Source of the DNA: a virus
Lineage: Duplodnaviria > Heunggongvirae > Uroviricota > Caudoviricetes
IMG/VR virus record: IMGVR_UViG_3300002054_000021
Span: 77,864-141,863 of that record
Direction: 5' to 3' (one strand)
Length of the DNA: 64,000 nucleotides
This document shows positions 20,617 to 63,912 of this stretch, in pieces. The translations under genes were made by a program, and so were the position numbers. The stretch's first letter is position 1; each line of letters opens with the position of its first letter. The notes under the pieces are model-generated. The model searched no databases. It was given only the letters and a program-made list of their open reading frames with translations, and was not told where the DNA came from.

Positions 20617-20639
20617 CGCTATGCAAAGGGGAGGTATAA

Positions 20640-21380
20640 TTGAAAAATTGTAAAGATGTAACTGAACTCTTACAGAAAGAGTTGGACTACAGAAGAATTA
20701 AAAAACATCCTTATAGTGGGTTCGACTATCTTGAATCTTGGGATGTGATAAATTCAGCGAATCTTATATTCGGGCACTTTGGTTGGGATAGCTCAATAAT
20801 GGATGTTCGCGAGATAAATACTATTAACAATGATGGCAAGTATGAAGTTTTTTACCTTGCTAAGGTGAGAGTTACTGTAACATATCTTGACGAAGATGGT
20901 ATAGAGAAGAGTACATTTAGGGAAGATGCAGCTGTTGGTGTTTCTTTTGGTAGGAAGCTATCTGATTGTCACGACAAGGCTGTAAAGGGCGCTGTTAGTG
21001 ACGCTGAGAAAAGGGCTTTGAGAAAGTTTGGTAATCAATTTGGGCTTCCATTATATGATGACGATAAAGCAAATGTTGACTTTAATCCACAAGAAAAAGA
21101 TCAGGGTGTAAATCAAGAAAACAAAGACATGACTAACTCATCATGCTCAGATGATATATTCGACAAGCTTAAGTCTGCATTGCTAGTTGCCGAGAAGAAA
21201 GCATTCGTAGCCTCTGATATAAAAGGCCTCCTTATAAATGATCAAACATCATCCATGATGGCGAGTTTAAAGGAATCTAATAAAGATAATTACGATGAGT
21301 TTATAAAACTTTGCTCTGATGCTGCGGACAGGCTTTCATCGCAATCGCATTCAGTCAGCGTAAATGATGATTACATGTAA
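20640..21380 (+). CDS. Rad52/Rad22-family single-strand annealing protein
   Basis: Motif KAVKGAVSDAEKRALRKFGNQFGLPLYDDD. TTG start with AAGGGGAGG RBS. Confidence 0.65.
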   Translation: MKNCKDVTELLQKELDYRRIKKHPYSGFDYLESWDVINSANLIFGHFGWDSSIMDVREINTINNDGKYEVFYLAKVRVTVTYLDEDGIEKSTFREDAAVGVSFGRKLSDCHDKAVKGAVSDAEKRALRKFGNQFGLPLYDDDKANVDFNPQEKDQGVNQENKDMTNSSCSDDIFDKLKSALLVAEKKAFVASDIKGLLINDQTSSMMASLKESNKDNYDEFIKLCSDAADRLSSQSHSVSVNDDYM

Positions 21381-55512: not shown

Positions 55513-57795
55513 ATGCGAATCGAAGAAAGAACTAATGATTTTGCTTACAGTAATACAGTAGGTATTAAAGCACATGTTGGTAATGCAAGAGCTATTATCG
55601 CCATGCTTGCCAATATTTATGAAAACCCTGCGCTAGCCTTTATTCGAGAGATGGCATGTAATGCTTATGACGCTCATGTCATGGCAGATAACCTAGATAA
55701 GTCTTTCGACTTGCACTTTCCCACAAAAGATAATCCTAATCTTATTATCAGAGATTATGGAACTGGACTCTCAAAAGAGTTTATGGAAACGCGCTATACA
55801 TCTGTTGGCGATTCAACAAAAAAGAATAGCGATGATGAAATTGGCGGATTCGGTATCGGGCGACTTAGCTTCCTTTCAGTAACTGAAATGGCTATTGTCA
55901 CTTCTTACTATGAAGGCATGAAATATGCTTATAATGTAAGCCGTGACGAGAATCTTGATTTGTGCTTTTTTCCAATGGGTGAAGAGGAAACTGATGAACC
56001 TAACGGCCTTGAAATTATATTCACGCCTACGCAAGACGTTATTTACAAAACTATCGAGGCGTCAAAAGATTTTTTCAAAAGATTTAAAATGATGCCTAAC
56101 CTAACTGGCGCTGTTGTTCCGTTAGTTAGTATGGATTATGCTTTCGAGAATGAAAAATGGGGTGTTAGAAACGGGCCTTCATACGAGAATCAATTGAATG
56201 TGGTTATGGGTGGTGTTGCTTATCCTGTTAATCGGACACTAGCAGGTAATGATATATTTTCAGGTGTTGAAAATTTGATCGAGTCAAATATAGATTTATT
56301 CTTTAACATAAGTGATATTCAGCTTGCCCCTTCAAGAGAAGGTGTTATGCAAACTGACGACACTCTTAAAAAGATTGCCTCAAGACTTAATGAGATTAAA
56401 GATTATTATTTAGAATCATATCGCGATGGGCTGTCTAAGATTAATTTCTTACATGAAAAAAAGATATTCTTTTCTAAGTTTATTGTAGGTTTGCCAAATG
56501 GTGTAAATTCTCTTATCCGCTCTATTGCACGTAAAGAGGATTGCGGAGATTTAACGGAAATTAGCGTAAAGTTTCAACCGCACCGTATGAAGCTTAAGCA
56601 ATTTTATGAAACAAGAAAATTAGACAAGGCGGGTAACGTAGTAAGAGATTCTAATGACGAACCTGTTATGGAAACAAAGTCTAGAATAGTTGATGGGGAT
56701 TATGCCTATCGCTTTCATGAAAAAAGCTCATACCGCACTAGGTCTTGGAATACTGCGCACCGTTGGGATAAATCAACAACAAGCATGATTAAGATCAATT
56801 CGGAATTATTACATAGACAAAAATTTATCCTTATGGATATAGAGGATAGGTCTTGGAAGGCTACTATTGAACATAATTATGGCGATGATGACGGAGTTAG
56901 AGCCATCTATATGGGTAAAAGACAGAGTGACTTTAAGGCTATATTAAAACATATGACTAAGTTTGGTTTTAAGCCTAGTCAATTCACTAGACTTTCTGAA
57001 TTAGAAAAAAAGCCGCGTGTTAGGAAATTGCTTAACGGACGTAATTTTAGACGTAACAATATTAGCGACTCAACGTCTGGATCATTTTCCTCTTATAGTG
57101 AGGTTCCATTCACTTCGATATCTGAATCAGATGTTGTCTTTGTTGAAACAAATCGCCATGAGGTTGTCTGTCAAGAGTCCATCGAAGCTTTAAGGGACGC
57201 TAGGTTTGCTCATGCGGTGGGATTGTTGAAAAACTTTTCAGTTTACGCTGTGAGTAAATCTTACCTGTCTATGGTTCCTGATAACTGGATTAATATTGTT
57301 GACTATATGAGTGAGATAGATTTGCGGAGTATGAAAAAACTTATTAAATCTCAATACCGCTCTATGGTTATCTGTGAAGGATTAAAAAGTATAAGTTATA
57401 AATTTAAACCCACAGAAGACACTGATGTCCCATATAAAGACGAACATGGCCATGTAAAAATTCTTGCTGTAAGAGAGTATGAATCAAAGCACATGAAGTT
57501 TTTACGTATGGGAAAAAACCTGTCTGTCAATATGCTTAATGATTTAGAGTTCCTTTATGAGCGACATAAAAATGTTCGTGATATGTTCAAAGAAACTAAC
57601 GTAGAAGTTTCAGATGCGCGTGAATGCCTTGACTTGACAAAAAGCAAGATGTCTGCTAACAATATATTAGACCAGAATTATGCTTTTTCTAAAATTCAGG
57701 GCTTTCTGGGAAGTGATGTTCACAATTTCCTATCATCCAAGAAAGACCCCATTGCATTTATCGTTAAGGTCAACAATTTTGTAAGAGGACATTAA
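55513..57795 (+). CDS. GHKL-superfamily ATPase (Hsp90/MORC-like HATPase_c) with 560-aa uncharacterised C-terminal region
   Basis: Bergerat-fold N-box REMACNAYDA, G1 box IRDYGTGLS and G2 box IGGFGIGRLS. Confidence 0.6.
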   Translation: MRIEERTNDFAYSNTVGIKAHVGNARAIIAMLANIYENPALAFIREMACNAYDAHVMADNLDKSFDLHFPTKDNPNLIIRDYGTGLSKEFMETRYTSVGDSTKKNSDDEIGGFGIGRLSFLSVTEMAIVTSYYEGMKYAYNVSRDENLDLCFFPMGEEETDEPNGLEIIFTPTQDVIYKTIEASKDFFKRFKMMPNLTGAVVPLVSMDYAFENEKWGVRNGPSYENQLNVVMGGVAYPVNRTLAGNDIFSGVENLIESNIDLFFNISDIQLAPSREGVMQTDDTLKKIASRLNEIKDYYLESYRDGLSKINFLHEKKIFFSKFIVGLPNGVNSLIRSIARKEDCGDLTEISVKFQPHRMKLKQFYETRKLDKAGNVVRDSNDEPVMETKSRIVDGDYAYRFHEKSSYRTRSWNTAHRWDKSTTSMIKINSELLHRQKFILMDIEDRSWKATIEHNYGDDDGVRAIYMGKRQSDFKAILKHMTKFGFKPSQFTRLSELEKKPRVRKLLNGRNFRRNNISDSTSGSFSSYSEVPFTSISESDVVFVETNRHEVVCQESIEALRDARFAHAVGLLKNFSVYAVSKSYLSMVPDNWINIVDYMSEIDLRSMKKLIKSQYRSMVICEGLKSISYKFKPTEDTDVPYKDEHGHVKILAVREYESKHMKFLRMGKNLSVNMLNDLEFLYERHKNVRDMFKETNVEVSDARECLDLTKSKMSANNILDQNYAFSKIQGFLGSDVHNFLSSKKDPIAFIVKVNNFVRGH

Positions 57796-57796
57796 G

Positions 57797-58759
57797 ATGG
57801 TTAGCATGAAAGAAGGTTCCAAAGTATTAAAAGCGCAACCGACTCGCGGCGCTGTTCCACCTATTATTTTTGATGGAGCGGGAAATATCTTATCGTTTTA
57901 TTTTGACGGAAATCCTTATATGGTAAGAAGTGAGAATATGAATTTCTTGCTGATTAAAGATTTAGTTAAAGAGGGTGAAACATTAAAGCGCGAAGGCAAG
58001 GATGAAGAGTCCGCCCAAAAAATGCAGGATGCAATTAACCTTATTGACCATAAGAAAGCAATGCAGTCACTAACGTATGGACGTATTCAGGTTGTAGGAA
58101 AAGAATTGTATTATTCTGGCGTCCGTGTTGATGATAGATTGACTCAGTTAATGGTTAAGCTTGCAAGACAGAGAGAGAAGTTTGAGCCTCTTGGCAAATT
58201 CCTTGAAAACCTTGCTAACAATGTTAGTGATAGATCGAGAGAGCAACTATTTGATTTTATTGAAAGGCATTTATTTTCTATTACACCAGATGGAAAATTC
58301 TTAGCGTATAAAGTTGTTCGTAGTGATTATACGGATTGCCATACTGGAACATTTGACAATAGTGTTGGAATTACTGTTGAAATAGACAGAAGTGAGGTTG
58401 ATGACAATCCTAACAGGACTTGTTCTCATGGATTGCACGTATGTGGAAAGAGCTACATTAACTCATTTAGGCGCGGTAGTAATAGACTATTGCTAGTCGA
58501 GGTTGACCCTAAAGATGTCGTGTCTGTTCCAACTGATTACAACGGCGCTAAAATGAGAGTTTGTAAATATCGAGTAATAGAAGAGCTTGATGATGTTTAT
58601 GAAAATGACAATGTTGGTATTGTTATTGACACTAACAAAAAGACTCGCCGCGATGCAAAGGGAAGATTCCTTCCTGCTAAAGTCTATACCCCATTGCGTG
58701 GTGAGGATGGGAAATTTATTCCAGACACAAATAATTTAAACAAATGTTTGATTTGGTAA
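57797..58759 (+). CDS. hypothetical protein translationally coupled to the GHKL ATPase
   Basis: TAAGATG overlap with the upstream gene. Contains CSHGLHVCGKSY. Confidence 0.5.
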   Translation: MVSMKEGSKVLKAQPTRGAVPPIIFDGAGNILSFYFDGNPYMVRSENMNFLLIKDLVKEGETLKREGKDEESAQKMQDAINLIDHKKAMQSLTYGRIQVVGKELYYSGVRVDDRLTQLMVKLARQREKFEPLGKFLENLANNVSDRSREQLFDFIERHLFSITPDGKFLAYKVVRSDYTDCHTGTFDNSVGITVEIDRSEVDDNPNRTCSHGLHVCGKSYINSFRRGSNRLLLVEVDPKDVVSVPTDYNGAKMRVCKYRVIEELDDVYENDNVGIVIDTNKKTRRDAKGRFLPAKVYTPLRGEDGKFIPDTNNLNKCLIW

Positions 58760-59415: not shown

Positions 59416-59898
59416 ATGACTAAAAAAGCACATATTCATACGCACACATTATCTATTGAGGGCGATGTTCCAGATCATGTCTTTAAGGACATAATAAAAA
59501 CTGGCAACAAAATTATCAAATCATTCAATGAAGAGAATAGATATTCTGGCATTGTTGTAAATTGCGGTAAAGAAAAATTTAAAAAGAAAAAGAAAAAGAT
59601 ACAGGTTAACGGCCTAGGTATTAGGTCTTATGAAACATTCTACATAAAACCTGAATTAATGATTAACGGCACTGTTCACACCTGCAAAACTAACGATGAG
59701 ACATATGATGGTGCTGTTGGCGCTATATGTATGATGGCAGAAGCGCTTTCTGGTGGTCTTATTAAGTACACTGGTGGTAATTTTCGCAATAAACGCCCAA
59801 AATACGAGAGAGTTTTACATAAATCTATAGGATTCGCCACAAATACCGCTTTATGGCCTAATAAAGAAGGTGAAATACGAGCAATATCAACAACATAG
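59416..59898 (+). CDS. hypothetical protein
   Basis: 160-aa ORF. Contains an (AAAAAG)x3 tract. Confidence 0.5.
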   Translation: MTKKAHIHTHTLSIEGDVPDHVFKDIIKTGNKIIKSFNEENRYSGIVVNCGKEKFKKKKKKIQVNGLGIRSYETFYIKPELMINGTVHTCKTNDETYDGAVGAICMMAEALSGGLIKYTGGNFRNKRPKYERVLHKSIGFATNTALWPNKEGEIRAISTT

Positions 59899-59929
59899 AT
59901 AAAAAATGCATTATTTTTGCTTTTTATTG

Positions 59930-59958
59930 TTGACACCTAGGATTTATTATTCTATAAA
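59930..59958 (+). promoter_or_regulatory. promoter TTGACA-17-TATAAA
   Basis: Best-fitting consensus promoter in the window. No ORF follows it. Confidence 0.55.
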
Positions 59959-59963
59959 ATGAA

Positions 59964-60078
59964 CATCGGCAAAGTCCTCCCCTGATTAGCCGATCCGCGA
60001 TCCCCGACCTCCCCTTTGGGTTGATCGCACACCTTGGCTCCTTCTGGCTCCCCCTTTGCCAGTTGGGGCCATTTTTTT
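59964..60078 (+). ncRNA. candidate small non-coding RNA 1 (about 114 nt)
   Basis: Promoter, then a C/U-rich GC-enriched segment with no ORF, then a hairpin plus T7 terminator at 60047-60078. Confidence 0.4.
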
Positions 60079-60081
60079 ACA

Positions 60082-60110
60082 TTGACTAAAGGTTAATAAA
60101 ATTGTATATA
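60082..60110 (+). promoter_or_regulatory. promoter TTGACT-17-TATATA
   Basis: Sits immediately after the terminator of candidate sRNA 1. Confidence 0.5.
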
Positions 60111-60116
60111 TAAGAT

Positions 60117-60266
60117 CCAGTCACACTCCATGCACAGCTTTATGTTAGAGAGGCTTGCAAGAGACTATGATGCTACTTCGTGTCTGGAAGTTGGTTATGG
60201 CCATTTGGGAAGTGAATAGTCTCAATCTAACGTAAACTAGGTCGCTCTTTGAGCGGCCTTTTTTAT
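60117..60266 (+). ncRNA. candidate small non-coding RNA 2 (about 150 nt)
   Basis: Only a 29-codon ORF without RBS. Ends at the GGTCGCTC-TTTG-AGCGGCC plus T6 terminator at 60240-60266. Confidence 0.4.
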
Positions 60267-60274
60267 TTTTCTTG

Positions 60275-60303
60275 TTGACAATCTATGTAAACTATGCGAA
60301 AAG
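60275..60303 (+). promoter_or_regulatory. conserved early-type promoter cassette plus CAACAAACGAAAG leader
   Basis: -35 element TTGACA at 60275. Confidence 0.5.
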
Positions 60304-60330: not shown

Positions 60331-60630
60331 ATGCCAAAAAACTCTTTACAGAAACTTATTGATAGGGCGATAGAAAGCACTGGAGATAAAGCAGAGGATT
60401 TTCTTGTTATAGCTCATGATATATCATTGGACGCAAAGCATAAATCTGGCACATCGGAAGGTATTAGACTTTTCGGAGATGACACCCTTTCTGACTTTTA
60501 CGAGCTTGTCAGCAATACAGTTAAAGATGTTAGCGGCAAATCAAGAATGAAGTTTCATGAGTATGTCGAGGACAGTAATTTTAACATAAATATTTTCTTG
60601 CAAGAACTGAAAGACAGAGCCGAGGCTTGA
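60331..60630 (+). CDS. hypothetical protein
   Basis: 99-aa ORF. Confidence 0.5.
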   Translation: MPKNSLQKLIDRAIESTGDKAEDFLVIAHDISLDAKHKSGTSEGIRLFGDDTLSDFYELVSNTVKDVSGKSRMKFHEYVEDSNFNINIFLQELKDRAEA

Positions 60631-61694: not shown

Positions 61695-61768
61695 GCATCC
61701 GTAGCTCAATTGGATAGAGCAACTGCCTTCTAAGCAGTAGGTTACAGGTTCGAGTCCTGTCGGATGTG
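61695..61768 (+). tRNA. tRNA-Arg (anticodon TCT)
   Basis: Acceptor GCATCCG/CGGATGT, G18G19, anticodon loop CTTCTAA, T-arm ACAGG-TTCGAGT-CCTGT, encoded CCA. Confidence 0.75.
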
Positions 61769-62046: not shown

Positions 62047-62565
62047 TTGAGTTCAAAGATAAAATTAGAATATCCATATAATCAAGATTGGAAATGGGGA
62101 TACCTAACTGAAAAAACAACTGGGCGCGATAAGGGCCGCAAGAATATAAGCTTAGTAAATTCTCGCAATAATAGAAGTAGCGTTAGTTACGCTCGTTATT
62201 TAATGTCTGTTCATTTAGGTAGATATCTTACAGATGATGAGCATGTAGATCATATCAATGAAGACAAAGCAGATGATAGAATGGACAACTATCAGATACT
62301 AACTAATGCTGAAAATACCAAAAAGTCACAAGCATTTGCAATTTATGTTGATTTGAAATGTCCTCAATGTGAAAGTAGATTTCTAAGAAGGCGCAAACAC
62401 ACTCACTTATGCGTTAAGAAAAAATTTGTTGATTTCTGCTCTAGAAGCTGTTCTTCAAAGTACTATTCTAGAAAAGACAAAATTAAGTTTACAGAAGAGA
62501 ATAGTAATGCTATAAGTGAAGTCATACTTCATGTGAATGAAGTGGAAGATTATGTATTTGATTAA
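62047..62565 (+). CDS. HNH homing endonuclease
   Basis: Motif HVDHINEDKADDRMDNYQILTNAEN. GAGGTGG RBS. Abuts the tRNA-Met gene. Confidence 0.6.
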   Translation: MSSKIKLEYPYNQDWKWGYLTEKTTGRDKGRKNISLVNSRNNRSSVSYARYLMSVHLGRYLTDDEHVDHINEDKADDRMDNYQILTNAENTKKSQAFAIYVDLKCPQCESRFLRRRKHTHLCVKKKFVDFCSRSCSSKYYSRKDKIKFTEENSNAISEVILHVNEVEDYVFD

Positions 62566-62783: not shown

Positions 62784-62856
62784 GCAGGATGGTGAGAATC
62801 GAACTCACGAAATTCGGGTTCTAAGCCCGACGACCTTCCAACAGATCAACATCCAC
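62784..62856 (-). tRNA. tRNA-like gene, anticodon TAG (Leu-type) but type-I short variable loop and mismatched 1-72 and 2-71 pairs
   Basis: Reverse-complement fold: U8, G18G19, anticodon stem TCGGG/CCCGA, loop CTTAGAA, T-arm GTGAG-TTCGATT-CTCAC. Acceptor GTGGATG versus CATCCTG. Confidence 0.45.
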
Positions 62857-63180
62857 TAACGAATTCGGAAGCTATCCGTATAAGTTAGCTGCTAGACTGA
62901 ACTACGCTAGGATCAGCTTAATCCTTGGCATAGAACCGATGTCTTAGTATTATCATCTGTTTATTATGTCAAGTACTAACTTATTTTTTATTTTTCTATA
63001 TCACTATTGACTCACGTCTTATTTTATGGTATACAATAATTATCATTGGGTTCATTTGCCCCGATTACTAAATGTTTGTTAAATGCAGACAACGATAATT
63101 TCGCTCCTGTAGCGGTTGCTATCGCGGCTTAGTCCACGAAAAGCTGAGTTGGTTCAATCTGACTTGGAAACAGAATTAAA

Positions 63181-63912
63181 TTAGAGTGTAGCGTTCTTCG
63201 CTACACTTTCATTTTTGATTTTAGGTACTCTTCCAGAATTTACACACTTTACTATAGTTGTGCGGTGAACTTGAAAATATTCAGCAGCCTCTTTTGTTGA
63301 TTTAAATAAAATTCCACCTAAGGTGAAATTCTTCATATTTTTCCTAAGGTAATTTGATCTTCCATTATTTTTTGCCCATCTTTTAATTGTGTTAGTGCTA
63401 ACCTTAAAATGCCTAGCGGCATCGCTATAAGATTTAAATACAATACTATCTATCACAACTTGTATAGCGTCCTTACCTCCCTTTTTTAAAGAAAGTGATT
63501 TTCCTCCTTTAGATATCCATCTCGCTATAGTTTTATTACTGACACAAAAATGTCTAGCGGCGGCTCCGTATGACTTAAAATATATGTCATCTATAGTACA
63601 TCCTATAGACCTCCTGCTTTCATTAACGTAGCAACCCTTGCCTCCGTTTATCCCGTTGTAACATTCATTTGAATCTATCATCTCTTTAGTTATAATATCG
63701 GACTCGTATTGGTAAGCCTCTTCTTCTGTCTCAAAATGCAATAAGACTTCTTTGCAAAAGTTATGCTCTCCGTATTTTTCTATTGCTTTCAATAAAGCAT
63801 AACCAGACCCTAAGTACGAACATTGATCCCCGCACCTATTAGAACAAGAATGCTTTCCAATATAGTATTTACCATTGACCAAGTTAGTAGTTTTATATAC
63901 TGTATGTTTCAT
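63181..63912 (-). CDS. GIY-YIG homing endonuclease with three or four IENR/NUMOD repeats
   Basis: N-terminus MKHTVYKTTNLVNGKYYIGKHS. GGGG RBS. Upstream cassette is shared with the gene at 52651. Confidence 0.65.
   Translation of the reverse strand: MKHTVYKTTNLVNGKYYIGKHSCSNRCGDQCSYLGSGYALLKAIEKYGEHNFCKEVLLHFETEEEAYQYESDIITKEMIDSNECYNGINGGKGCYVNESRRSIGCTIDDIYFKSYGAAARHFCVSNKTIARWISKGGKSLSLKKGGKDAIQVVIDSIVFKSYSDAARHFKVSTNTIKRWAKNNGRSNYLRKNMKNFTLGGILFKSTKEAAEYFQVHRTTIVKCVNSGRVPKIKNESVAKNATL

What the first reader, a model, noticed from the sequence alone, without database searches (positions are those of the whole stretch)
59930..60266. Two tandem promoter/terminator-bounded transcripts with no ORF
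The best consensus promoter in the window (TTGACA-17-TATAAA at 59930-59958) is followed by about 110 nt of unusually GC- and C/U-rich sequence (CCTCCCCTGATTAGCCGATCCGCGATCCCCGACCTCCCC...), which ends in a hairpin plus T7. A second promoter (TTGACT-17-TATATA at 60082-60110) drives about 150 nt that ends in a second hairpin plus T6 (60240-60266). Neither unit contains a credible ORF. Phage tRNA regions are known to harbour stable small RNAs of unknown function. The C/U-rich composition could act as an anti-Shine-Dalgarno or sponge sequence.
Basis: seen in the sequence. Interest (0 to 1): 0.6.

Follow-up and report, generated by a model that had tools for sequence, protein, structure and literature searches.

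The report
Phage small RNA with C-rich loops
A large uncultured phage carries a conserved gene of about 114 nt for a non-coding RNA that displays CCCC motifs on hairpin loops, the design bacteria use to block ribosome-binding sites; the second "transcript" next to it has little support.

Summary
The sequence features are at the stated coordinates. Unit 1 (59965-60078, + strand) is very likely a real small-RNA gene.

- **Structure.** It folds into three hairpins (z = -5.9). Each apical loop carries a C-run: CUCCCCU, CCUCCCCU and UCCCCCUUU. The last hairpin plus U7 is an intrinsic terminator.
- **Conservation.** The only divergent relative I could find has the same promoter and three hairpins at the same position. 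Its flanking gene is 55% identical at the protein level. The UCCCCU motif stays in loops 1 and 2. The stems differ by 5-6 compensatory changes and none of the homologous pairs breaks. No ORF is conserved.
- **Closest analogue.** The design matches Xanthomonas sX13 (115 nt, 4C/4C/5C loops). It is not a member of any Rfam family (sX13 20 bits against a cut-off of 50).
- **Likely mechanism (inferred).** The loops pair with G-rich ribosome-binding sites. In this phage, 12 of 111 genes have GGGG-type Shine-Dalgarno sequences. One, a Rad52-like gene, is complementary to loop 2 over 12 nt. Target statistics are not significant.

Unit 2 (60117-60266) has a strong terminator, but its body is not unusually structured. 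It has no homologue and is absent from the relative. It remains unexplained.

I rate this a new member of a known kind, of moderate interest.

The parts
59930..59958 (+). Sigma-70-type promoter of unit 1: TTGACA, 17-nt spacer, TATAAA
   Evidence: Read from the sequence. It scores 11/12 to consensus. A promoter is conserved at the same position in the relative: L144 TTGACT 524-529, 17-nt spacer, TACACA 547-552. The -35 to -10 stretch is 76% identical between the two phages.
59965..60078 (+). Unit 1: predicted sRNA of about 114 nt with three hairpins (the 5' end is inferred from the -10 box)
   Evidence: MFE is -46 kcal/mol with z = -5.87; none of 200 shuffles folds as well. The opposite strand gives only z = -2.15. 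A homologue at L144:557-670 folds the same way with z = -5.64. A covariance model built from the window sequence finds L144 at 25.8 bits, E = 0.0025.
59965..59994 (+). Hairpin 1; apical loop CUCCCCU at 59977-59983
   Evidence: P(unpaired) of the C-run is 1.0. The L144 counterpart has loop UUAUCCCCUUUU. In the stem, one pair changes on both sides and one on one side.
59997..60028 (+). Hairpin 2; apical loop CCUCCCCU at 60008-60015
   Evidence: P(unpaired) is 1.0. The L144 loop is UACUCCCCUUU. Three compensatory pair changes and none broken among the homologous pairs.
60035..60078 (+). Hairpin 3, which is also the intrinsic terminator; loop UCCCCCUUU at 60049-60057; U7 tract at 60072-60078
   Evidence: In L144 the terminator hairpin is kept, with two compensatory and three one-sided changes, but its loop is a UUCG tetraloop with no C-run.
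60082..60110 (+). Promoter-like site of unit 2: TTGACT, 17-nt spacer, TATATA
   Evidence: Read from the sequence. It scores only 9/12 to consensus. No counterpart can be checked in the relative.
60117..60266 (+). Unit 2: stretch of about 150 nt of unknown nature; strong intrinsic terminator at 60239-60259 plus T6
   Evidence: The terminator was found by the scan. The whole unit gives z = -2.19, but the body 60117-60238 gives z = -0.32. No homologue. Small ORFs at 60130-60219 (29 aa) and 60167-60235 (22 aa, MMLLRVWKLVMAIWEVNSLNLT).
20624..20635 (+). Candidate target site: CAAAGGGGAGGU, covering the Shine-Dalgarno sequence of the Rad52-like gene 20640-21380 (TTG start)
   Evidence: It is perfectly complementary over 12 nt to sRNA positions 43-54 (ACCUCCCCUUUG, loop 2 plus flanks). 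The 246-aa TTG-start product is also what public gene calls give (P0123, PF04098). The match is not significant on its own: 14.6% of shuffled sRNAs reach 12 nt somewhere in the window.

Best explanation
Unit 1 is a stand-alone, trans-acting small regulatory RNA of a large virulent-type phage. The phage contig is about 208 kb and carries rIIA/rIIB.

The RNA is transcribed by host sigma-70 RNA polymerase from its own early-type promoter. Transcription ends at its third hairpin, giving an RNA of about 114 nt made of three stable hairpins. These display single-stranded UCCCCU-type motifs in their apical loops.

By analogy with sX13, RsaE/RoxS, RNAIII, RepG and the 'cuckoo' RNAs, the loops would pair with G-rich (GGGG) motifs at or near ribosome-binding sites. 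That would block 30S binding and so repress translation of a subset of host and/or phage mRNAs. Phage genes with GGGG-type Shine-Dalgarno sequences are the concrete candidates. Among them, the Rad52-like gene at 20640 has the best match.

- **Shown here:** the gene anatomy, the fold, the exposure of the C-runs, conservation with compensatory changes, and the absence of a conserved ORF.
- **Inferred:** expression, the pairing mechanism and the identity of the targets.

Unit 2 is not explained by this model. I treat it as an orphan cassette bounded by a promoter and a terminator. It could be a non-conserved RNA, a small-peptide gene, or a leader with an attenuator for the downstream 99-aa ORF.
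For: **Fold.** Three hairpins, z = -5.87 on the + strand against -2.15 on the - strand.

**Exposure of the motifs.** The three loop C-runs have P(unpaired) = 1.0.

**Conservation.** The only divergent relative is L144, whose flanking 160-aa ORF is 55% identical. At the same position it has:
- a promoter with the same spacing;
- three hairpins (z = -5.64);
- UCCCC and CUCCCC in loops 1 and 2.

**Covariation.** In my manual structural alignment of 27 homologous pairs, 17 are unchanged, 4 change on one side, 6 are compensatory and 0 are broken. On the model-fitted alignment:
- 96.5% of cells are paired, against 24-44% when partners are slid;
- 5 pairs change on both sides, against 0-2 when slid;
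- 17 of 500 shuffles reach the observed values.

**Constraint.** The sRNA is 68% identical at the nucleotide level, the same as the flanking coding genes (65-68%).

**Non-coding.** L144 has no ORF of 20 aa or more on either strand across the RNA.

**Rfam leads.** The only matches, all sub-threshold, are to C-rich-loop RNAs (sX13, 6C).

**Architecture.** It equals published sX13: 115 nt, three stem-loops with CCCC, CCCC and CCCCC loops, repression of mRNAs that carry G-rich motifs at the start site, Hfq-independent (PMC3771888).

**Possible targets.**
- GGGG runs are 4-fold enriched at -20 to -4 of phage start codons: 12 of 111 genes, p = 3e-5.
- Canonical GGAGG is not enriched.
- The longest perfect complement of the sRNA in the window, 12 nt, joins loop 2 to the Shine-Dalgarno sequence of the Rad52-like gene.
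Against: - There are no expression data.
- Only two distinct sequences exist, so covariation cannot be tested statistically, and the hairpin-1 alignment is manual.
- Predicted duplex energies of the loops with translation-initiation regions are no better than with intragenic control windows (Mann-Whitney p = 0.65).
- Counts of 8- and 9-mer complements are not above those for shuffled loops.
- The 12-nt match is reached by 14.6% of shuffled sRNAs.
- Loop 3 loses its C-run in the relative.
- CCUCC is not conserved; only UCCCCU is.
- The host is unknown, so host targets cannot be predicted.
Confidence: 0.5

Rival explanations
1. Unit 1 is a protein-binding decoy or sponge RNA. Its repeated C-rich loops would titrate a host or phage RNA-binding protein, or a G-rich host sRNA, rather than pair with mRNA ribosome-binding sites.
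For: It presents the same short motif in several loops, as protein-sponge RNAs do. There is no statistical support for mRNA targets within the window.
Against: From my own knowledge, I know of no bacterial RNA-binding protein that prefers CCCC loops. The characterised RNAs with this design act by base pairing (PMC3771888, PMC4615179). The relative keeps only two C-rich loops.
Confidence: 0.13
2. Unit 1 has no trans function. It is a cis element: the structured 3' UTR plus terminator, or an insulator, of the upstream 160-aa gene. In that case the promoter match is fortuitous.
For: No terminator lies between the stop codon at 59898 and unit 1, so read-through from the upstream gene would end at the same terminator. 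Promoter-like sites are at chance frequency.
Against: The -35/-10 pair is kept at the same spacing and distance in the relative, and is 76% identical. Two extra hairpins with conserved loop sequence and compensatory stems are not needed for termination. 3'-UTR-derived sRNAs with the same trans function would look identical, so this rival partly merges with the best explanation.
Confidence: 0.12
3. Unit 2 is either a small-protein gene (22-29 aa) or a transcribed leader with an attenuator terminator that controls the downstream 99-aa ORF (60331-60630). It would not be a stable regulatory RNA.
For: - ORFs at 60130-60219 (29 aa) and 60167-60235 (22 aa, hydrophobic), the latter with GAGAGG 13 nt upstream.
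- The body is not unusually structured (z = -0.32).
- The 99-aa ORF begins 65 nt after the terminator. The TTGACA box in between (60275-60280) has no recognisable -10.
- GAGAGGCUU (60148-56) could pair with the 5' arm of the terminator as an antiterminator. This is my reading of the sequence: 8 of 9 pairs.
Against: The Shine-Dalgarno spacing is poor (13 nt, or none). There are no homologues with which to test coding or leader conservation. Public gene callers call nothing there.
Confidence: 0.35
4. The whole finding is chance: an AT-rich phage intergenic region that happens to contain promoter-like hexamers and two ordinary terminators.
For: Promoter and terminator consensus hits are at the frequency seen in shuffled sequence over 54-64 kb.
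Against: For unit 1:
- z = -5.9 in the window and z = -5.6 in the relative;
- a unique C-run cluster;
- conservation with compensatory changes across phages whose proteins are 55-69% identical.

Chance remains possible for the body of unit 2.
Confidence: 0.04

Closest known systems
sX13 sRNA of Xanthomonadaceae (Rfam RF02232; Schmidtke et al. 2013, PMC3771888)
   Same: - Almost the same size: 115 nt against about 114 nt.
- Three stable stem-loops.
- Loops 1 and 2 carry CCCC and loop 3 carries CCCCC (UCCCCCU).
- Encoded in an intergenic region.
- The last hairpin with a U tract acts as terminator, as read from the Rfam sX13 consensus.
- sX13 represses mRNAs with GGGG motifs near the start codon. 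About 5% of Xanthomonas campestris pv. vesicatoria (Xcv) genes have such motifs at the RBS, against 11% of genes in this window.
   Different: - No sequence homology: 20.1 bits against a gathering score of 50, and the relative L144 does not hit at all.
- Encoded by a phage with 36% GC rather than next to polA in a bacterium with 65% GC.
- The C-run in loop 3 is not conserved in the relative.
- Function is untested here.
'Cuckoo' / CcsR (RSs0680) / alpha-r14 (NfeR1) sRNAs of Alphaproteobacteria (PMC4615179)
   Same: - A modular chain of 2-4 adjacent hairpins.
- Only the C-rich, anti-SD-like loop motif is conserved, while the stems drift by compensatory changes. This is the pattern seen between the window and L144.
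   Different: - The defining loop motif CCUCCUCCC is absent. The loops here are CCUCCCC or UCCCCU.
- No Rfam hit to these families at E <= 10.
- Phage-borne and single-copy in the window.
RsaE/RoxS, RNAIII and other UCCC-loop sRNAs of Firmicutes; RepG of Helicobacter pylori; 6C RNA of Actinobacteria
   Same: C-rich apical loops are used, or for 6C presumed to be used, as seeds against G-rich or Shine-Dalgarno sequences. The 6C model gives a weak match over hairpins 2-3 (17.3 bits).
   Different: All fall below the Rfam thresholds or give no hit. The architectures, hosts and genomic contexts differ.
Known phage-encoded sRNAs, as reviewed in PMC12197685
   Same: A phage-borne, promoter-to-terminator small RNA that is presumed to tune host or phage gene expression.
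   Different: The review's text has no occurrence of 'C-rich', and the passages retrieved for 'lytic' mostly concern temperate or prophage sRNAs and antisense RNAs. Apart from prophage- or island-borne S. aureus Spr RNAs, which I recall from memory and did not check, I know of no virulent-phage sRNA of the multi-C-loop type.

Membership tests
sX13 (Rfam RF02232) | Covariance-model score at or above the curated gathering score (50 bits) | tested here: not met
   20.1 bits, E = 0.11 in a 401-nt search. L144 gives no sX13 hit at E <= 10.
sX13 (Rfam RF02232) | Three stem-loops with apical 4C, 4C and 5C motifs | tested here: met
   Window loops are CUCCCCU, CCUCCCCU and UCCCCCUUU, each with P(unpaired) = 1.0. 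The relative keeps only loops 1 and 2.
sX13 (Rfam RF02232) | Xanthomonadaceae chromosome, polA-adjacent locus | tested here: not met
   The element lies in a phage contig with 36% GC, between a 160-aa ORF and a 99-aa ORF downstream of rIIA/rIIB.
sX13 (Rfam RF02232) | Hfq-independent repression of mRNAs that carry G-rich motifs near the start codon | not testable with these tools
   Only indirect evidence: GGGG-type Shine-Dalgarno sequences are enriched in phage genes. Duplex statistics are not significant.
Cuckoo / CcsR / alpha-r14 family | Each hairpin loop carries CCUCCUCCC | tested here: not met
   The sequence has CCTCCCC twice and CTCCCCC once, with no CCTCCTCCC.
Cuckoo / CcsR / alpha-r14 family | 2-4 adjacent hairpins; stems variable through compensatory changes; only the loop motif conserved | tested here: met
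6C RNA (Rfam RF01066) | Covariance-model score at or above the gathering score (47 bits) | tested here: not met
   17.3 bits.
Trans-encoded base-pairing sRNA (generic kind) | Own promoter and intrinsic terminator, no conserved ORF, conserved structure with an accessible conserved seed | tested here: met
   Expression itself was not tested.
Trans-encoded base-pairing sRNA (generic kind) | Demonstrable complementarity to target mRNAs beyond chance | tested here: inconclusive
   There is a 12-nt perfect match to the Shine-Dalgarno sequence of gene 20640, but P = 0.146 by shuffling. No enrichment of duplexes at translation-initiation regions. The host genome is unknown.
Rho-independent terminator | G+C-rich stem-loop directly followed by a U tract | tested here: met
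   Unit 1: 60035-60071 plus U7. Unit 2: 60239-60259 plus U6.
Type III antitoxin repeats / CRISPR-repeat mimics (anti-defence RNAs) | Tandem direct repeats of about 30-36 nt, or similarity to a CRISPR direct repeat | tested here: not met
   No tandem repeats within 59900-60300. No CRISPR-DR family hit in the window.

The most novel reading that the evidence does not exclude
The phage uses an early sRNA as a selective translational switch for one class of ribosome-binding site. Its genes fall into two Shine-Dalgarno classes. The GGGG type is found mostly in the 7.5-28 kb block of tail, baseplate and recombination genes. The AAGGA type includes rIIA, rIIB and many small ORFs. The UCCCCU loops match only the first class. 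The sRNA would then delay or limit translation of that gene class, and/or of host mRNAs with G-rich ribosome-binding sites, as a phage-encoded timing or host shut-off device. The Rad52-like gene at 20640 would be a direct target.
Probability: 0.15. Interest if true: 0.75.

Novelty: new member of a known kind. Interest (0 to 1): 0.45.

Why it matters
Small RNAs with C-rich loops that occlude G-rich ribosome-binding sites have arisen independently in several bacterial lineages. Finding the same design in a large virulent-type phage, conserved with compensatory changes, would extend that convergent solution to viruses.

It also gives a concrete, cheap test. One can ask whether lytic phages use trans-acting sRNAs to reprogramme translation of host mRNAs, or of one class of their own genes.

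The practical lesson from the rest of the finding is that a promoter plus a terminator alone, as in unit 2, is weak evidence for an sRNA.

Tried and rejected
**Similarity and family searches that found nothing useful**
1. DNA similarity of 59880-60300 to 50,697 phage records: no match.
2. Rfam at gathering and permissive thresholds: only sub-threshold hits.
3. Pattern scans for more family members:
   - Viral contigs three times;
   - Metagenome contigs;
   - Genome contigs.

   All hits were chance matches in GC-rich or coding DNA.
4. One apparent family of about 35 IMG/VR contigs turned out to be the antisense strand of a protein-coding gene.

**Searches in related phage loci**
5. Seventeen distant rIIB loci, plus contigs for P0003, P0004, P0007 and P0010: no CCCC cluster and no covariance-model hit.
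6. Exact-protein look-ups gave only identical copies of the same phage, 100% identical across the gap.
7. MAFFT could not align hairpin 1 correctly, so I counted pairs by hand and on the model-fitted alignment.

**Target tests**
8. Loop-to-initiation-region duplex energies, k-mer complement counts and the longest-match test were all non-significant.
9. Testing sRNA/target co-variation in the relative failed. No orthologue of the Rad52-like gene from that phage is in the database.

**Unit 2**
10. No pairing with unit 1 beyond shuffles.
11. No complementarity to phage mRNAs.
12. No relation to the HNH gene that occupies its place in L144.

**Other**
13. Host or sample identification through the literature: nothing. 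The proteins are under 30% identical to those of cultured phages.
14. Readings I rejected: CRISPR-repeat mimic, type III antitoxin, and an antisense 28-aa ORF (not conserved).

Full report
**Setting.** The finding lies in a 432-nt gene-free gap. The gap sits between a 160-aa ORF (59416-59898) and a 99-aa ORF (60331-60630), about 1.2 kb downstream of rIIA (55513-57795) and rIIB (57797-58759). Almost all genes are on the + strand. The window belongs to an uncultured phage of about 208 kb that has been assembled from several metagenomes. Those copies are 100% identical over the gap. Its proteins are under 30% identical to those of cultured phages, so the host is unknown.

**Observation.**
- The C-rich stretch stands out: GC 0.54 and GC skew -0.30, against about 0.3 in the flanks.
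- It contains the only cluster of at least three CCCC runs in the 64-kb window.
- Promoter 1 scores 11/12 with a 17-nt spacer. It is among the best sites but not the best, since 26419 scores 12/12.
- Promoter 2 scores 9/12.
- Consensus promoter and terminator hits occur at the frequency seen in shuffled sequence in this AT-rich DNA. On their own they are not evidence.

**Unit 1 is a structured RNA.** On the + strand, 59965-60078 folds into three hairpins. The MFE is -46 kcal/mol, z = -5.87, and none of 200 shuffles folds as well. The opposite strand gives z = -2.15.
- The three apical loops are CUCCCCU, CCUCCCCU and UCCCCCUUU. Their C-runs have an unpaired probability of 1.0.
- The third hairpin is followed by U7 and serves as the terminator.

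**Conservation.** Searching 5.8 billion proteins with rIIB and with the 160-aa ORF found only one divergent relative phage, in sample ERR4592243. Its rIIB is 69% identical and its ORF is 55% identical. On contig L144 the homologous ORF is followed by several matching features:
- a promoter with the same geometry (TTGACT, 17-nt spacer, TACACA);
- an RNA that again folds into three hairpins (z = -5.64);
- loops UUAUCCCCUUUU and UACUCCCCUUU;
- a terminator whose loop is a UUCG tetraloop.

A covariance model built from the window sequence alone recovers the L144 element at 25.8 bits, E = 0.0025, in 240 kb. It finds nothing else in the window or in more distant phage loci.

In a manual structural alignment of 27 homologous base pairs, 17 are unchanged, 4 change on one side, 6 change on both sides and none is broken. 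On the model-fitted alignment of hairpins 2-3:
- 96.5% of cells pair, against 24-44% when partners are slid;
- 5 pairs have compensatory changes, against 0-2 when slid;
- 17 of 500 shuffles reach the observed values.

Other points:
- Nucleotide identity of the RNA (68%) equals that of the neighbouring coding genes (65-68%). The promoter is 76% identical.
- L144 has no ORF of 20 aa or more on either strand across the RNA. The 28-aa antisense ORF and the 20-22-aa TTG ORFs in the window are therefore not conserved.
- With only two distinct sequences this is good but not statistical evidence.

**What it resembles.** Rfam gives only sub-threshold matches, and they are to C-rich-loop RNAs: sX13 at 20.1 bits (cut-off 50) and 6C at 17.3 bits (cut-off 47). 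L144 hits neither. It is therefore not a member of a described family.

The architecture, however, is that of sX13 as published. sX13 is 115 nt long with three stable stem-loops whose loops carry CCCC, CCCC and CCCCC (UCCCCCU). It represses mRNAs with G-rich motifs at the translation start and does not need Hfq (PMC3771888).

The evolutionary pattern is a conserved loop motif with stems that drift by compensatory change. That pattern is the one described for the CCUCCUCCC 'cuckoo' RNAs (PMC4615179).

A 2025 review of phage-derived sRNAs does not use the term 'C-rich' anywhere in its text (PMC12197685).

**Mechanism and targets.** The motif conserved between the two phages is UCCCCU. CCUCC, the true anti-SD core, is present only in the window phage.
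- The most enriched 5-mers upstream of start codons in this phage are GGGGG, AGGGG and GGGGA, followed by AAGGA.
- GGGG runs occur at -20 to -4 of 12 of 111 ORFs, against 2.8 expected (p = 3e-5).
- GGAGG is not enriched.
- Ten of the 12 genes lie between 7.5 and 28 kb. They include a tail-chaperone, a baseplate-wedge and a UvsX-like gene.
- The longest perfect complement of the sRNA anywhere on the + strand is 12 nt. CAAAGGGGAGGU at 20624-20635 pairs with loop 2 and its flanks. This site is exactly the Shine-Dalgarno sequence of a TTG-initiated Rad52-like gene.

These observations fit a model of GGGG-class ribosome-binding-site occlusion, but they do not prove it:
- loop-to-initiation-region duplex energies are no better than for intragenic windows (p = 0.65);
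- counts of 8- and 9-mer complements are not above those for shuffled loops;
- 14.6% of shuffled sRNAs reach a 12-nt match;
- host targets cannot be examined.

**Unit 2.** The terminator at 60239-60259 plus T6 is strong. Everything else is weak.
- The body 60117-60238 folds no better than shuffles (z = -0.32).
- The whole-unit z of -2.19 comes from the terminator.
- There is no homologue in phage records or in any locus fetched.
- There is no pairing with unit 1 or with phage mRNAs beyond chance.
- In L144 the equivalent place holds an HNH homing-endonuclease gene.
- It contains a 29-aa ORF and a 22-aa hydrophobic ORF with poor ribosome-binding sites.
- It could equally be a leader with an attenuator for the 99-aa ORF. 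That ORF's own TTGACA box (60275-80) lies in a 22-nt repeat of the region upstream of promoter 1 and lacks a -10.

I leave unit 2 unresolved.

**Searches for more members.** Five pattern scans of the viral, metagenome and genome collections returned only chance matches. The family currently has two members.

**Verdict.** Unit 1 is very probably a genuine phage sRNA gene of the C-rich-loop type. It is a new, non-homologous member of a known mechanistic kind in an unusual carrier, a large virulent-type phage. Its mode of action is inferred and its targets are open. Unit 2 is an orphan cassette with weak support. Interest is moderate.

Noticed in passing
window 63003-63212 (+): Another unit bounded by a promoter and a terminator: TTGACT 63007-12, 17-nt spacer, TATACA 63030-35, and a hairpin terminator at 63183-63209. 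It gives a sub-threshold alpha_tmRNA match (20.1 bits against a cut-off of 50; E = 3.6e-4 in a 411-nt search). The aligned part is a tag-like reading frame at 63085-63132, GCA GAC AAC GAU AAU UUC GCU CCU GUA GCG GUU GCU AUC GCG GCU UAG, which reads ADNDNFAPVAVAIAA-stop. A T-arm-like GGUUCAAUC follows. ARAGORN called no tmRNA. This may be a reduced phage tmRNA, and it hints at an alphaproteobacterial host.
   Followed up: partly
window, start codons of 111 + strand ORFs: The phage uses two kinds of Shine-Dalgarno sequence. The GGGG type occurs in 12 genes, mostly at 7.5-28 kb. The AAGGA type occurs in 14 genes, among them rIIA, rIIB and many small ORFs. Canonical GGAGG is not enriched upstream of starts.
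   Followed up: partly
window 60259-60280 versus 59914-59935: A 22-nt direct repeat (86% identical) duplicates the T-rich stretch and the TTGACA of promoter 1 just after terminator 2, upstream of the 99-aa ORF. No acceptable -10 hexamer follows it.
   Followed up: no
L144:737-1339 and 1567-2109; window 62047-62565 and 63181-63912(-): Homing-endonuclease genes (HNH and GIY-YIG/I-TevI-like) are scattered through this early/tRNA region and differ between the two related phages. One sits exactly where unit 2 and the 99-aa ORF are in the window. This suggests cassette turnover right next to the conserved sRNA.
   Followed up: partly
L153:2295-2460 and about 35 other IMG/VR 3300045988 contigs: A nearly identical C-rich stretch containing CTCCCCTTTGG...CTTGGC looked like a second C-rich RNA family. 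It is the antisense strand of a 166-aa arginine-rich, zinc-ribbon-like ORF (L153 1971-2471, - strand). It is not an RNA gene.
   Followed up: yes
window 62784-62856 (-): tRNA-Leu(TAG) lies on the minus strand in an otherwise + strand region, between tRNA-Met(CAT) and the tmRNA-like unit. tRNA-Arg(TCT) at 61695 directly abuts the stop of a 63-aa ORF.
   Followed up: no
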